Positions 7,954 through 43,526 of a stretch of 64,000 bases of DNA are shown here, piece by piece. The notes beneath the pieces are model-generated. The model was given only the letters and a program-made list of their open reading frames with translations, ran no database searches and was not told the DNA's origin. The stretch is from positions 32,001 through 96,000 of the IMG/VR virus record IMGVR_UViG_3300020577_011395. One strand, given 5' to 3'. Positions within the stretch are counted from its first letter, which is position 1. The number at the start of each line of letters is the position of its first letter. The position numbers were made by a program, and so were the translations under genes. The DNA is from a virus. Lineage: Duplodnaviria; Caudoviricetes.

Positions 7954-7998
7954 GCCCCTTGACAGACGGACGGGGCCATGCTAGAGTAGGTTCATAAG
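7954..7998 (+). promoter_or_regulatory. sigma70-type promoter, repeated element copy 1
   Basis: TTGACA-N17-TAGAGT with extended TG and A-tract upstream; 35 bp identical to 10033-10067. Confidence 0.85.
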
Positions 7999-8562: not shown

Positions 8563-8639
8563 CCGGGTGTAGCTCAGTCGCGAAGAGCATCTGATTTGGG
8601 ATCAGAAGGCCGCAGGTTCGATTCCTGTCACCCGGACCA
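8563..8639 (+). tRNA. tRNA-Pro(TGG)
   Basis: cloverleaf; TTTGGGA loop; CCA end. Confidence 0.93.
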
Positions 8640-8658
8640 ACCTTCTGAGAAGGTATTA

Positions 8659-9279
8659 ATGAAGTTAAGCGAAATCTCGATAGAAGAACTTTCTAAAATT
8701 ACTAAAGAAAGTTCTTCGTATGCTGAAGTCTTCCGACGTTTGGGAAGAAAGACCCATAGTGGCATGGGCCTAAAATATTTAAAGATAAAGTTAGAAGAAA
8801 ATAATATAGATGTTGGACATTTTAAAAGAGTTATAAAGCCAAATTCTATACCTAGATTAACAGCAGAAACAATTTTTCAAGATAACTATAAAATAAGATG
8901 TACCGCAAAAAAATTAAGAAAAACTCTTTTAAGTGTTGGCGTTGAACATAAATGTGCTGTATGTTCATTAACAACTTGGCAAAATAATAAAATTGTTTTA
9001 GAAATAGATCATATAGATGGCAATCCGCTAAACAACAAGATAGAAAATTTAAGATTTATATGTCCCAACTGCCACTCGCAAACGAATAATTATGGTTCTA
9101 AAAATATGAAAAAACAAACCAAGAAAGTTTATATAAAGCGCCAACGAAAAACAAAAATAAATTGGCCTTCAAAAGAAAAGCTACAAGAACTTCTAGACAA
9201 GAATTCTTTTGAAGAAGCTGCAAGATTTCTTGGTGTATCATCAAATGCAATTAGAAAAAGACTAAAAAAGGAGTATTAG
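8659..9279 (+). CDS. HNH homing endonuclease with HTH domain
   Basis: C..C, LEIDHIDG...NN..ENLRFICPNCHSQT; C-terminal AARFLGVSSNAIRKRL; stop lies inside tRNA-Asp. Confidence 0.92.
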   Translation: MKLSEISIEELSKITKESSSYAEVFRRLGRKTHSGMGLKYLKIKLEENNIDVGHFKRVIKPNSIPRLTAETIFQDNYKIRCTAKKLRKTLLSVGVEHKCAVCSLTTWQNNKIVLEIDHIDGNPLNNKIENLRFICPNCHSQTNNYGSKNMKKQTKKVYIKRQRKTKINWPSKEKLQELLDKNSFEEAARFLGVSSNAIRKRLKKEY

Positions 9280-10081: not shown

Positions 10082-10120
10082 GGGGAAGCGGCAAAGTTGG
10101 AGAGTTGGAGTGGACTATAA
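10082..10120 (+). pseudogene. 5' half of a tRNA-Tyr-like gene, broken at the anticodon loop
   Basis: GGGGAAG acceptor strand, D-arm, GTGGA-CTATAA; no 3' half seen; immediately downstream of a promoter. Confidence 0.65.
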
Positions 10121-10158
10121 TAAATTTAACCTTTCAATTTTTCAAAACTATATATAGT

Positions 10159-10680
10159 ATGAACACTATAAAATGTAAAAGTTGTCAAGAATATTTTGAA
10201 GTTACTGCCAATACTAAAAGAAAAATTTTTTGTAATAGAAAGTGTTCTGCTCAATATAATAATAAGCGTAGAATAGTTTCTGAATCTACAAGACTAAAAT
10301 ATAGTGAAAATCTCAAAAATAGAATTAAAGTGAATGGCCCACTAACTTCCGGGGAAACGGCTATAAAATATGGCTCGGATAGTCAAAAAGGCAAGCATAA
10401 TAAAGAAATAAAATCAATTTATGAATGTTCCTCTCGTACTAGAGAAAAAATAATTAAACGCTTAAAAATGGGTTGTTCTAGGTGTGGTTGGTCTGAAGGT
10501 AATGGCGACATACATCATATAAATGGAAGAAAAATAGAAGACGCTAATAATATGTCAAATCTTTGTTATTTGTGCCCTAATTGTCATAGATTATGTCACG
10601 AAGGCAAAATATTAAAAGAATCTTTAATTCCTTTATCAAAAACAATACCTGAAAACTGGAAAGAATATTATTATGGTTGA
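10159..10680 (+). CDS. HNH endonuclease with N-terminal Zn-finger
   Basis: C..C...FC...C; CSRCGW, DIHHING, N..SNLCYLCPNCHRLCH; stop lies inside tRNA-Tyr. Confidence 0.9.
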   Translation: MNTIKCKSCQEYFEVTANTKRKIFCNRKCSAQYNNKRRIVSESTRLKYSENLKNRIKVNGPLTSGETAIKYGSDSQKGKHNKEIKSIYECSSRTREKIIKRLKMGCSRCGWSEGNGDIHHINGRKIEDANNMSNLCYLCPNCHRLCHEGKILKESLIPLSKTIPENWKEYYYG

Positions 10681-13133: not shown

Positions 13134-13173
13134 TTGACACGCCGCCGGACCTGTGGTAGAGTAGGTTCATAAG
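13134..13173 (+). promoter_or_regulatory. sigma70-type promoter for the DIP1984-like gene
   Basis: TTGACA-N17-TAGAGT; shares TAGAGTAGGTTCATAAG with 7982-7998. Confidence 0.85.
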
Positions 13174-13206
13174 ATTGAGACACACCAAAGAAAAGGATTG
13201 ATAAAA

Positions 13207-13677
13207 ATGAACACTGTAAAACTTCGCAAGGCCCTCCAAATTAAGAATCGTCTAGCTGGTGAAATTGCTAATCTAACTCGTCGTCTGAATGTAAACAACC
13301 ATCCTGACCAAGATGGTAAGGCTCCTGAGTTTGATATTCGTGCCCTTTTAGCTGAACGTAAAGAACTAGTAAATAAGCTAGTACAGGTAAAGACTGTTAT
13401 TGCAAAGGCTAACGTTGATATCTATGAAAAGATCAATCAACTAGCTGAACTAAAGAGCGAGGTTTCTGTACTATCTCTAATCCCTACTCAAGATGTTCGT
13501 GGCAATAAAAGAGTACTAGTTGAAGGCCGTTATGATTATCTTGATACTGTTACACCTGCGGTTATTAAATCTAAAGAAGTACAAGAAAAAGTTACTGCTC
13601 TTAATTTAGAAATTGAAAGTCTACAAGACGCAATCGACTATCATAATTCGGTCACTGATGTTGTTGTGCCGGAATAA
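13207..13677 (+). CDS. DIP1984-like (septicolysin-like/DUF6847) helical protein
   Basis: KL.KAL..KNRL..EI..L..RL..NN, D...LL.E...L..KL......I..AN, LQD.ID..N..T.V match my recollection of the family pattern. Confidence 0.7.
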   Translation: MNTVKLRKALQIKNRLAGEIANLTRRLNVNNHPDQDGKAPEFDIRALLAERKELVNKLVQVKTVIAKANVDIYEKINQLAELKSEVSVLSLIPTQDVRGNKRVLVEGRYDYLDTVTPAVIKSKEVQEKVTALNLEIESLQDAIDYHNSVTDVVVPE

Positions 13678-13692
13678 GTTAGTCTAAAAGCT

Positions 13693-13939
13693 AGGGAGTA
13701 GCCAACACCTATTCCAACATATTTTAGAATATAATGGTTAAAAATCTTTCGATTCATACTCGAAAACCTCCTTTGCCTGGATGATAAAACACGACAAGGA
13801 TAAGGAACAGCGGATTCGTCCGCCCAAAACTTAAGTCTTTTTCTATTAAGATTGAAAGTTTAAAACCTAAACCACAAACTCTAAAATTCTTCCAACCATT
13901 TTTTTGAAGTGTGCTTGGAGTAGGTGTTGGCGAAACCTT
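13693..13939 (+). ncRNA. unknown ~247-nt structured RNA
   Basis: 17-bp terminal helix 13701-13717/13915-13931, AGTA/GAA motif, TTCG hairpin, 7-nt tandem repeats. Confidence 0.75.
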
Positions 13940-13950
13940 TTATAATTTAT

Positions 13951-14026
13951 GGGATCGTAGCTCAATTGGCAGAGCATTCCGCTTTTAACGGACAGGTTGT
14001 GGGATCGTCACCCACCGATCCCACCA
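13951..14026 (+). tRNA. tRNA-Lys(TTT)
   Basis: CTTTTAA loop; T-loop ATCGTCA; CCA end. Confidence 0.92.
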
Positions 14027-14119: not shown

Positions 14120-14198
14120 TTTTTAGAACATAGCTTAACGGAAAAGCATACCTCAAAATAGAGGTGGATTTTGGTTCGAATCCAAATGATTCTAAAAA
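14120..14198 (+). ncRNA. tRNA-like RNA 1 (no CCA, no canonical anticodon loop)
   Basis: D-arm, TTCGAAT T-arm, 6-nt loop AAAATA, extended bulged acceptor-like stem. Confidence 0.7.
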
Positions 14199-14227
14199 GT
14201 TTTTATTGTACTACTTAAAATAAGTAT

Positions 14228-14305
14228 GGCCCATTCATCTACGTTTGGCTAGGATATTGGACTTTCACTCCAACAAAACGGGATCGACACCCGTATGGGC
14301 TACCA
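14228..14305 (+). tRNA. tRNA-Glu(TTC)
   Basis: CTTTCAC loop; T-loop ATCGACA; CCA end. Confidence 0.9.
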
Positions 14306-14307
14306 AT

Positions 14308-14386
14308 TTGTAAGATATCATCCTTGGGGATATTAGGCACCCTTGAAGTGCCTACGGCACAGTTCAAATCTGTGATATACTTACAA
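14308..14386 (+). ncRNA. tRNA-like RNA 2 (no CCA)
   Basis: 12-bp bulged terminal stem; 7-bp stem with CCTTGAA loop; TTCAAAT T-arm. Confidence 0.7.
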
Positions 14387-14391
14387 TAATT

Positions 14392-14470
14392 TTGTAGAGG
14401 TCTTACTAGGGTAGGTATTGCGGTCGCGGAGACAGCAAAAGCTGGTTCAACTCCAGCAGACACTTTACAA
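14392..14470 (+). ncRNA. tRNA-like RNA 3 (no CCA)
   Basis: 12-bp bulged terminal stem; GCTGG-TTCAACT-CCAGC T-arm; irregular anticodon arm. Confidence 0.68.
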
Positions 14471-16169: not shown

Positions 16170-16694
16170 ATGAAGATTAAAATCTTAAAAGAGTCACTTG
16201 AAGAACCAAAAGGTCTAGGAAATAAGCTTGGGTCTGGCGTTCAAGGGATTGTATATAGGCTTGAAAATGGCCAAGTAGCGAAACTGACAAAAAAGAAACA
16301 AGAAGCAGAAATCGCAACTCTCATTTTAAATAAAAAAATATTTCATGAAGCCTTACCAATATTCACATCCGTGAATAAAACAACAGAAAATAAATGGTGG
16401 TTGGTAAGAGAAGATTTACGGGACTTCCCAAAAAACAAAGAATTGGACCGAGTTCTTGGTGACTTCGAGGTGATGACAGTTTACACTGATTGGTCACCAG
16501 CAGTCCAACAAGCACAAAATTCGTTAAATAGTCTAGAGGGTAAAAATCTAGAATATGCTAAAAAAATGTTTTCTCTCTATGAATATGCAAAACAAATAGG
16601 CATGAAGCTTACAGACTCTAGAACAAGCAATTGGGGTTTAAGAGGCGATCAGCCAGTTTTAAGAGATTTTGGCGCAGCAAGAATAAATGTATAA
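16170..16694 (+). CDS. protein-kinase-fold protein
   Basis: LGSGVQGIVY, VAK, D....NWG, DFG motifs. Confidence 0.78.
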   Translation: MKIKILKESLEEPKGLGNKLGSGVQGIVYRLENGQVAKLTKKKQEAEIATLILNKKIFHEALPIFTSVNKTTENKWWLVREDLRDFPKNKELDRVLGDFEVMTVYTDWSPAVQQAQNSLNSLEGKNLEYAKKMFSLYEYAKQIGMKLTDSRTSNWGLRGDQPVLRDFGAARINV

Positions 16695-18039: not shown

Positions 18040-19329
18040 ATGAAAATTAAGATATTAAAAGAAAGTTTATTATTGGAAGCGACCTATGAAGAGGCTAAGA
18101 CAATAGTAAATGGCCGTAAATATACTAAACAATTATTTGGTAGAGTAAAGCAGTATGTAGAAAAAGAATTTTCAAAACACTCTCATCCAGAAAAACAGGA
18201 TTATCTTGAAGATTGGACTGAAACAATAATTGGCTATATATTAAATAATTTTAAAACAGCGATTCCAGATGATATTACTGATGTGCAAAAGGGCGAAGCC
18301 CTTTTGTGGATTAAAAATATTACAGTAAATCAAATAGATGACCTAGTGACGTTTGCTTATCAACGATCTATTGTAATCAACCTAAATAGGAAAATAGAAA
18401 AATTTTTTAAAATGAGAGAAGCTGGGATTTTACCGGCAGATAAAAGTCAATTAAGTTCTTTTATAAGCGCAGAACAATTATTCCGTTTTATAGATGATCA
18501 CGAAAGTATTTATCAAAATTATATAAATAATAAAAAATCTAAAGTTGATAAAGCAAAAGCACTAGAAGGCACCGAACTAGTCTTTGAGGACGAAAAGTGG
18601 AAAGTATTTATACCTCATAATAAAGAGGCTTCCTGCGTATTAGGCTCTGGTACTGATTGGTGTACAGCAAAAGCAGGTCAAAATTATTATGAAGAATATC
18701 ATAAACCATATGATCCATTATTTATAATAATAAGTAAAACTGATCCAAAAGAAAAATATCAATTTCATTATGGTTCTATGCAGTTTATGAATAAAAACGA
18801 TGAACAGCTAGTTAGCACAAGCCCACAAATTTTAGTATCTTTACAACACATATTAAAAGAAAAAGTATCTGACCAATACCCCATAATTAATAATTTTGAA
18901 GTAGAAAAAGATCCTAGCGCAGACGAATACGCAACAAAAGAAAAAACTCAATATGGAAAAACAATAGAAACGGTTCATAAACTTGGTATTTTGTATCACT
19001 CAGATTTACTTCCAGCCTATGAACTAACAGATATAGAAGGTAACACGTTTCAGCAAGAGTGGTGGTGGCATGGCCTTAGACACAATTTGCATGGTCCTGC
19101 AAAAATTAATTACACTGATAATGTAATAGAATATTTTATTTATGATAGATATATAGGAAGTAAGCAAAAATTTGATGAGATTATACAAACACAAGCCTAT
19201 GAGAACATAAAACCAGAAGGTGTAGAAGCTGACTATTACGACCGAAGTCAAGAAAGAGAACTAATGAGAAATTTAAATATTAGAGAAAACAAAAACAATA
19301 AAAAGTTCAAAATAAAGATCCTAAACTAG
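18040..19329 (+). CDS. hypothetical phage protein (GTxWCT motif), possibly virion-internal
   Basis: SC.LGSGTDWCTA, KYQFH...QFM; N-terminus MKIKILKES shared with 16170. Confidence 0.7.
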   Translation: MKIKILKESLLLEATYEEAKTIVNGRKYTKQLFGRVKQYVEKEFSKHSHPEKQDYLEDWTETIIGYILNNFKTAIPDDITDVQKGEALLWIKNITVNQIDDLVTFAYQRSIVINLNRKIEKFFKMREAGILPADKSQLSSFISAEQLFRFIDDHESIYQNYINNKKSKVDKAKALEGTELVFEDEKWKVFIPHNKEASCVLGSGTDWCTAKAGQNYYEEYHKPYDPLFIIISKTDPKEKYQFHYGSMQFMNKNDEQLVSTSPQILVSLQHILKEKVSDQYPIINNFEVEKDPSADEYATKEKTQYGKTIETVHKLGILYHSDLLPAYELTDIEGNTFQQEWWWHGLRHNLHGPAKINYTDNVIEYFIYDRYIGSKQKFDEIIQTQAYENIKPEGVEADYYDRSQERELMRNLNIRENKNNKKFKIKILN

Positions 19330-43078: not shown

Positions 43079-43264
43079 ATGGAAAATAAATTGAAGCTGT
43101 CAGACCAAGCGATAGCAGCACTAAATGTACTGTTTTTAAAATGTTTATTTACGCAACAAGATATTAGAGAGCTGCTGAAATCAGCTGATTTTGCAACTGT
43201 TGGGGATCTCATTGTTGTAACAAACCCAGAAGAACAATTAGCCATACCAGAAGAAGGAAACTAA
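43079..43264 (+). CDS. hypothetical phage protein
   Basis: GGAG RBS; LSDQA...L...L...Q.DI...L; VTNP. Confidence 0.6.
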   Translation: MENKLKLSDQAIAALNVLFLKCLFTQQDIRELLKSADFATVGDLIVVTNPEEQLAIPEEGN

Positions 43265-43265
43265 A

Positions 43266-43526
43266 ATGCCAGCCTATGTTTACAAATGCAAAGAATGTCA
43301 AGAGACGTATAAAGTTGTTCATAGCATGACAGAATCTCTGCATGATTGTGAACACTGCAATGGCGTTAAGACTCTCGAAAGAATCCCTTCTTTATTGACT
43401 TCTTATGACAAGCATAAAACTGAAAAGGATTTTGCTGGAGAAAGGGTAGCAAGGGCAATAGAAGACAACAGAAAGATATTGCTAGACCAGAAAGATGTGT
43501 TAAGAAACAAGGATTATAAGCCATGA
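43266..43526 (+). CDS. FmdB-family zinc-ribbon protein
   Basis: MP.Y.YKC..C......H.M......C..C. Confidence 0.85.
   Translation: MPAYVYKCKECQETYKVVHSMTESLHDCEHCNGVKTLERIPSLLTSYDKHKTEKDFAGERVARAIEDNRKILLDQKDVLRNKDYKP

What the first reader, a model, noticed from the sequence alone, without database searches (positions are those of the whole stretch)
13134..13939. DIP1984-like protein followed by a ~247-nt structured RNA with 7-nt tandem repeats: candidate undescribed ribonucleoprotein system
Seen: a dedicated promoter, a 156-aa helical ORF, then a non-coding element starting about 15 nt after the stop. Its ends pair over a long range: 13701-13717 with 13915-13931 (17 bp, one G-U), extended inward by CATATTT/AAGTGTG and AATGGTT/AACCATT. 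It is capped by AGGG-AGTA/GAAA-CCTT, which matches the AGUA/GAA bulged-G (loop E/sarcin-ricin) motif. Inside are short hairpins (GCGGA-TTCG-TCCGC) and six units at exact 7-nt period (13847-13888: TAAGATT GAAAGTT TAAAACC TAAACCA CAAACTC TAAAATT), plus two more at 13825-13838. Known: I know of no established function for DIP1984-family proteins; periodic single-stranded repeats are how oligomeric proteins such as TRAP bind RNA. Inference: the protein oligomer binds the repeats, one per subunit, as an RNP, an RNA-antitoxin pair or an autoregulatory unit. I do not recognise the RNA as a known family.
Basis: partly seen in the sequence, partly recalled or inferred. Interest (0 to 1): 0.88.

Follow-up and report, generated by a model that had tools for sequence, protein, structure and literature searches.

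The report
Phage repeat-tract RNA with protein partner
Right behind a small gene of unknown function, this large phage encodes a real, conserved, folded RNA of about 250 bases with a row of evenly spaced 7-base units; the gene and RNA occur together in many phages (T5 included) and bacteria and match no catalogued RNA family, so they are probably two halves of an undescribed protein-RNA particle.

Summary
The window is part of a 129-kb phage record, inside a cluster of 28 tRNAs. The 156-aa protein is a distant DIP1984/DUF6847-fold member: it falls below both family cut-offs, and its only fold match is 3KDQ. The RNA (13693-13939, z -7.4) has no Rfam match.

The loop-E cap occurs only in some lineages. 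The T5.085 subfamily (739 phage records) has the same RNA with more units.

Best reading (0.65): a protein oligomer binds the unit tract. Binding and expression are inferred, not shown. Its likeliest role (about 0.3) is protecting translation or RNA repair: rtcB follows the RNA in two bacterial clades, and tRNA clusters recur. Variable positions evolve slower than synonymous sites, which argues against a VIPR-like guide.

This scan has noted the family before on other DNA (95 notes, at least 80 genomes). I found no paper describing it.

The parts
13134..13162 (+). sigma-70-type promoter with extended -10; a shared phage promoter type that probably also drives the downstream tRNAs
   Evidence: similar promoters precede 20 of 81 homologous genes
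13207..13677 (+). 156-aa DIP1984/DUF6847-fold protein (long helical hairpins plus a beta-hairpin); conserved K13, N31, K62, N69, E81, K83, Q140, D144, N147
13693..13939 (+). structured non-coding RNA, about 247 nt, ends closed by a long helix
   Evidence: conserved in homologues
13693..13717 (+). 5' strand of the basal cap, loop-E-type AGUA (13697-13700) and first 17 bp of the closing helix
13718..13739 (+). 5' strand of the inner parts of the closing helix
13747..13779 (+). variable inner hairpin region
   Evidence: differs between relatives
13793..13810 (+).
13810..13823 (+). UUCG hairpin between the two tracts (optional in the family)
13824..13891 (+). heptad tract: two 7-nt units, one 8-nt unit, six 7-nt units, then the TYTT tail
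13894..13939 (+). 3' strand of the closing helix, with GAA (13932-13934) of the loop-E motif
13951..14026 (+). tRNA-Lys(UUU), 11 nt behind the RNA; its 5' processing could release the RNA's 3' end (inference)

Best explanation
A two-part module: gene plus RNA on one transcript.

Shown by computation: the RNA is a conserved family. A long helix closes a large loop holding a short 6-nt-period tract and about eight 7-nt units of consensus UYAA-NNN.

Inferred:
(1) The RNA is cut from the polycistronic tRNA transcript. The closing helix protects both ends, and RNase P cleavage before tRNA-Lys could give the 3' end.
(2) An oligomer of the helical protein binds the tract, one site per unit, reading UYAA through its conserved Lys/Asn/Gln residues. 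The 8-nt third unit and the optional looped-out hairpin mark fixed positions on the oligomer.
(3) The particle's likeliest job (about 0.3 on its own) is to keep translation going under nuclease attack, as a scaffold or decoy working beside RNA-repair enzymes and spare tRNAs, in the manner of Ro60-Y RNA.
For: - Periodicity across 88 loci (<70% aa identity): YYAAR pairs at 7 nt, 92 against 6 expected; at 14 nt, 63 against 5; GAY pairs at 6 nt, 59 against 11.
- Tract score of 20 or more behind 61 of 87 genes, in 0 of 73 upstream regions, and 7 of 87 reverse strands.
- Fixed 7,7,8,7,7,7,7,7 layout fits 60 of 88 loci.
- Closing helix: cognate arms pair at -43 against -26 kcal/mol for non-cognate. 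Pair identities change while pairing is kept in 11 loop-E loci. 15 of 41 pairs show compensatory change in a bacterial clade.
- Reverse test: of 11 viral contigs found by the unit pattern alone, 3 carry the gene upstream; the other 8 are near-homogeneous or AT-rich simple repeats.
- The distant 210-aa T5.085 subfamily (hhalign 93.7%, E 2e-7; fold match 3KDQ) has the tract in 7 of 7 cultured phages, mostly with 10-14 units.
- One of two canonical DIP1984 loci has an 8-unit tract with a shifted consensus.
- rtcB lies directly behind the RNA in two clades, with two RtcB types only 27% identical. An RNA ligase lies upstream in L003/L004. tRNAs lie within 1.5 kb in 10 of 62 loci.
Against: - No direct evidence of expression, processing, oligomer state or binding.
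- The protein has no net positive charge (23 K/R against 23 D/E) and no known RNA-binding fold.
- 15 of 88 loci lack a significant tract within 420 nt; some may have diverged or more distant RNAs.
- Neighbours are mostly unrelated: RtcB is only 3 of 149 adjacent genes, and the tree does not force more than one origin of the rtcB link. The functional step is therefore weak.
- In this copy, part of the tract is predicted to pair with itself.
Confidence: 0.65

Rival explanations
1. A cis-acting 3' element of the mRNA (stability, processing or feedback control of its own gene), bound by its own protein but not acting as a free particle.
For: Nearly always directly 3' of the gene on the same strand (median tract start 125 nt after the stop). 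No strong promoter between gene and RNA. One copy per gene.
Against: 5' leaders carry no units (2 of 83 against 3.9 expected), so there is no operator-like target. The closed ends and exact unit count are more than a stability element needs. In some loci the closed element starts 90-200 nt or more after the stop.
Confidence: 0.14
2. The RNA is a decoy for a host RNA-binding protein or endoribonuclease, and its own protein is only a stabiliser or unrelated.
For: Mostly viral family (Atlas clusters 67-98% viral). Often near tRNAs. Repeated short A/U-rich motifs resemble nuclease sites (own knowledge of ToxN and MazF specificity).
Against: The same consensus is kept across phages of Proteobacteria and Firmicutes and in PVC bacteria. 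No gene-less copy was found in the reverse test.
Confidence: 0.08
3. A type III-like toxin-antitoxin pair: helical toxin, repeat RNA antitoxin.
For: Two-part gene-RNA unit with repeats. Database label 'septicolysin' on relatives.
Against: The RNA lies after the gene, not before it with a terminator between. Units are 7 nt, not 34-57 nt pseudoknots (own knowledge of ToxI). No ToxN, AbiQ, CptN or meaningful PADLOC match. The fold is unlike a cytolysin.
Confidence: 0.07
4. A VIPR-like guide RNA in which the three variable bases of each unit spell a non-contiguous target.
For: Constant-plus-variable repeat design and phage location resemble vrRNAs (10.64898/2026.04.26.720920). Positions 5-7 of the middle units carry little information family-wide.
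Against: Variable positions change slower than fourfold-degenerate codon sites (0.10 against 0.31; 0.28 against 0.53). One RNA per locus, no array. No skip-code target in the own record. No tRNA complementarity above chance. The protein is not a RAMP.
Confidence: 0.05

Closest known systems
DIP1984 family / Pfam DUF6847 (PF20935, NF038048; structure 3KDQ, Corynebacterium diphtheriae; often labelled 'septicolysin')
   Same: Same fold (TM 0.77, Z 13.3), similar length; 105 of 150 homologues hit NF038048.
   Different: The window protein scores below both cut-offs (22.7 <27; 26.7 <70). The family has no described function or RNA partner in the library searched.
VIPR systems (Vipr + vrRNA; bioRxiv 10.64898/2026.04.26.720920)
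   Same: Small phage gene with an adjacent repeat RNA of constant and variable positions; ribonucleoprotein.
   Different: Vipr is a RAMP/RRM protein, and vrRNAs are 5-nt GGY/NN repeats, hypervariable and in arrays. Here the protein is helical, the repeats are heptads under purifying selection, and there is one closed RNA.
TRAP-trp leader and HutP-hut RNA (own knowledge)
   Same: An oligomer binds short, evenly spaced single-stranded repeats (inferred here).
   Different: Those repeats sit in 5' leaders of regulated operons and the folds are unrelated. Here the repeats lie in a closed RNA 3' of the protein's own gene.
Ro60/TROVE-Y RNA (PMC7824862 for jumbo phages; PMC4201824 abstract)
   Same: Protein gene with an adjacent stem-closed ncRNA, found near rtcB, ligases and tRNAs.
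   Different: No TROVE homology, no Y RNA or tRNA-like match in Rfam, and periodic tracts that Y RNAs lack. The rtcB link is found in a minority of lineages.
Type III toxin-antitoxin (ToxIN, CptIN, TenpIN; own knowledge)
   Same: Two-part unit of gene and repeat RNA.
   Different: Gene order, repeat size and protein family all differ.

Membership tests
DIP1984/DUF6847 | Score over the curated Pfam/NCBIfam cut-off | tested here: not met
   22.7 against 27 bits; 26.7 against 70 bits
DIP1984/DUF6847 | 3KDQ fold over the full length (superfamily level) | tested here: met
Any Rfam 15 family (incl. RAGATH-27, Y RNA, ToxI) | Covariance-model match | tested here: not met
   Window at E<=10: only two weak opposite-strand snoRNA hits over the element. 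Nothing but tRNAs in 40 loci. T5 gap empty. The RF03100 genome search had a silent control.
VIPR | RAMP/RRM protein | tested here: not met
   The model is helical and matches only 3KDQ
VIPR | Hypervariable target-coding positions, several RNAs per locus | tested here: not met
VIPR | RNA-guided DNA binding | not testable with these tools
   needs a binding assay
Type III toxin-antitoxin | ToxN/CptN/TenpN-type toxin downstream of 34-57-nt repeats and a terminator | tested here: not met
   the RNA is downstream and the units are 7 nt
Type III toxin-antitoxin | Toxicity neutralised by the RNA | not testable with these tools
   bench test
TRAP/HutP-type attenuation | Repeats in a 5' leader overlapping a terminator | tested here: not met
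Ro60-Y RNA | TROVE-domain protein and Y RNA | tested here: not met
Loop E / sarcin-ricin-type motif | AGUA opposite GAA between paired stems, conserved | tested here: met
   Strict motif in 5 of 88 loci against 0-1 in shuffles; invariant in 11 loci with covarying flanks. The 3D geometry itself was not tested.

The most novel reading that the evidence does not exclude
A new, widespread class of ribonucleoprotein. A helical oligomer of a fold never linked to RNA counts out a fixed number of 7-nt units (plus a 6-nt tract) on its own closed RNA, and phages such as T5 and some bacteria use it in conflicts over translation, either as an RNA-repair scaffold or as an anti-defence particle.
Probability: 0.5. 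Interest if true: 0.88.

Novelty: categorically new. Interest (0 to 1): 0.78.

Why it matters
It would give a function to a large orphan family: more than 1,000 clusters at 50% identity, a crystal structure without a function since 2009, and database labels of 'septicolysin' or 'tail fiber' that the fold does not support. It would also add an uncatalogued RNA class and a new mode of periodic RNA recognition. The T5 relative (T5.085 and the unannotated gap at 43142-43504 of AY543070) makes it directly testable in laboratory E. coli.

Tried and rejected
- Pairing of the hexad tract with the heptad tract: a weak family-wide excess (-7.7 against -5.9 and -6.5 kcal/mol), but in no fixed register, with no column covariation and none in this copy. 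Not adopted.
- Guide codes against the own record and the phage tRNAs: chance level. Host and competitor genomes were not tested.
- T5 RNAX with T5.081 as the relative: rejected. The relative is T5.085.
- Fused longer forms: none found, which is weak evidence.
- RAGATH-27 (a lead from earlier notes): no match seen.
- A recalled 'Rot domain' in Burroughs and Aravind 2016: the paper is not held, and PMC7824862 uses ROT for TROVE, so the recollection was dropped. Prior mention of this family in that paper cannot be excluded.
- Minerva preprint 10.64898/2026.09.22.753630: no mention.
- PAK_P3 sRNAs (PMC4933390): no link established.
- L207 as a gene-less copy: a chance AT-rich repeat.
- No PHROG for the window protein; no plasmid hit for homologue P0010.
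- The tree is a quick one; the careful search did not finish.
- Pseudoknots reported in earlier notes on other copies were not tested.

Full report
Setting. The window is bases 32001-96000 of a 129-kb linear virus record estimated 40% complete, so probably a jumbo phage (inference). The finding lies inside a cluster of 28 tRNA genes, between tRNA-Cys with a DUF4926-like gene and tRNA-Lys at 13951.

Observation. The promoter is a 10/12 sigma-70 match of a type that recurs three more times in the window. The RNA folds at z -7.37, with the helices listed in the observation check. Six AAR motifs at exact 7-nt period occur only once in the record. Rfam gives no meaningful match over the element at E up to 10.

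Protein. The 156-aa product hits DUF6847 and DIP1984_fam below their cut-offs, but 105 of 150 homologues hit the latter. A profile finds 3KDQ, and a confident model (pLDDT 96.9) matches only 3KDQ (TM 0.77, Z 13.3). It is therefore a member of the fold superfamily, not of the curated family. There are 1,008 relatives at the 50% cluster level, and the nearest Atlas clusters are mostly viral. The best-conserved residues are mostly Lys, Asn, Gln, Glu and Asp, with no His or other obvious catalytic set. No fusions were found.

RNA family. I gathered about 190 loci and reduced them to 88 at under 70% protein identity. Downstream DNA shows strong 7-nt periodicity of YYAAR (92 pairs against 6 expected) and a separate 6-nt periodicity of GAY (59 against 11). 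A tract beats all shuffles in 73 of 88 loci (profile trained on the same data). With the window left out of training, the tract is still the top hit of the whole record, and 61 of 87 downstream regions against 0 of 73 upstream regions score 20 or more. The usual layout is two to four hexads, an optional hairpin, eight heptads with an 8-nt third unit, a TYTT tail and then the closing strand. A hexad pair precedes the tract in 49 of 60 loci against 3-13 by chance. The window copy has one heptad more than its nearest distinct relatives L002, L005 and L016; L007 also has nine units.

Closing helix. Cognate arms pair at -43 against -26 kcal/mol for non-cognate arms. Pair identities turn over while pairing is kept, and 15 of 41 pairs are compensated in a Verrucomicrobia clade. 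The loop-E cap is invariant in 11 loci from two lineages but strict in only 5 of 88.

Reverse test. Of 11 viral contigs found by the unit pattern alone, three have the gene upstream. The other eight are near-homogeneous or AT-rich simple repeats. No convincing gene-less copy turned up.

Reach. T5.085 and its relatives are homologous (hhalign 93.7%, E 2e-7 over 154 columns; best fold match 3KDQ) and occur in 739 phage records, often labelled tail fibre. The unannotated gap behind T5.085 is the best tract of a 22-kb strand. All seven cultured phages checked have a tract that beats every shuffle, six of them with 10-14 units. One of two canonical DIP1984 loci shows an 8-of-8 period with a shifted consensus; the other is inconclusive.

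Mechanism. A fixed number and register of short units inside a closed loop, tied to one gene across distant phages and bacteria, with unit number differing between protein subfamilies, is most simply explained by an oligomer binding one unit per site (0.65; inferred). A guide role is disfavoured: the variable bases evolve about half as fast as synonymous sites or slower, there is one RNA per locus, and no target was found. Autoregulation lacks an operator. A toxin-antitoxin reading fails on gene order, repeat size and protein family.

Function. Neighbours are mostly mixed. However, rtcB follows the RNA directly in two bacterial clades with different RtcB types, near relatives sit beside an RNA ligase and NAD-salvage genes, and tRNA clusters recur. 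Jumbo phages use such genes against host attacks on translation (PMC7824862). A translation-protecting scaffold or decoy is my best guess, at about 0.3.

Novelty. The library holds no paper on DUF6847 or T5.085, and none relevant on DIP1984 or 3KDQ. Subscription papers are largely missing, and Burroughs and Aravind 2016 could not be read. The module fails membership of VIPR, type III toxin-antitoxin, TRAP/HutP and Ro60-Y RNA. This scan has already noted the same family on other DNA (95 notes, at least 80 genomes); these are unchecked AI notes and were used only as leads. What this copy adds is the hexad tract, the 7,7,8 layout, the covarying loop-E cap, the rate test against a guide and the reverse test.

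Verdict. A real and apparently undescribed gene-RNA module. The ribonucleoprotein is probable but not shown, and its role is open. Interest 0.78.

Noticed in passing
window 14228-14302: Rfam finds a tRNA (40.9 bits, UUC anticodon region, unusual T loop) that ARAGORN missed.
   Followed up: no
window 14120-14470: tRNA-like elements without ARAGORN calls; Rfam scores 14125-14194 at 31 bits.
   Followed up: no
   Followed up: no
window 8596-9279 and 10105-10680: Two HNH endonuclease genes whose stop codons lie inside the following tRNA genes (tRNA-Asp 9270, tRNA-Tyr 10675).
   Followed up: no
window 16170-16694 and 18040-19329: Two unrelated ORFs start with the same nine residues, MKIKILKES.
   Followed up: no
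window 7881, 7959, 10038, 13134: One promoter type (TTGACA, GC-rich spacer, TAGAGT) is repeated in the tRNA cluster; those at 7959 and 10038 are identical.
   Followed up: partly
window 13171-13181: The gene's 5' leader has about 10 nt nearly identical to units 4-5 of the tract. Not enriched in homologues, so probably chance.
   Followed up: yes
L186:19143-19505 (T5 AY543070 43142-43504, minus strand): Unannotated closed RNA with about 14 heptads behind T5.085. It is not one of T5's annotated stable RNAs.
   Followed up: yes
L195:2154-2628 (Erwinia phage Ea35-70): The RNA behind the T5.085 homologue contains what looks like a circularly permuted tRNA-like stretch (T arm before D arm), seen by eye.
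   Followed up: no
L066/L068 and L074/L097: Two Opitutales genomes each carry two copies of the gene-RNA-rtcB unit.
   Followed up: partly
L008, L010, L021, L039, L149 downstream regions: One phage clade has extra structured non-coding sequence between the stop codon and the closed heptad RNA.
   Followed up: no
fold search of the window protein: Fold relatives in giant eukaryotic viruses (Catovirus, Yasminevirus), a crAss-like phage and CcrColossus; their downstream DNA was not examined.
   Followed up: no
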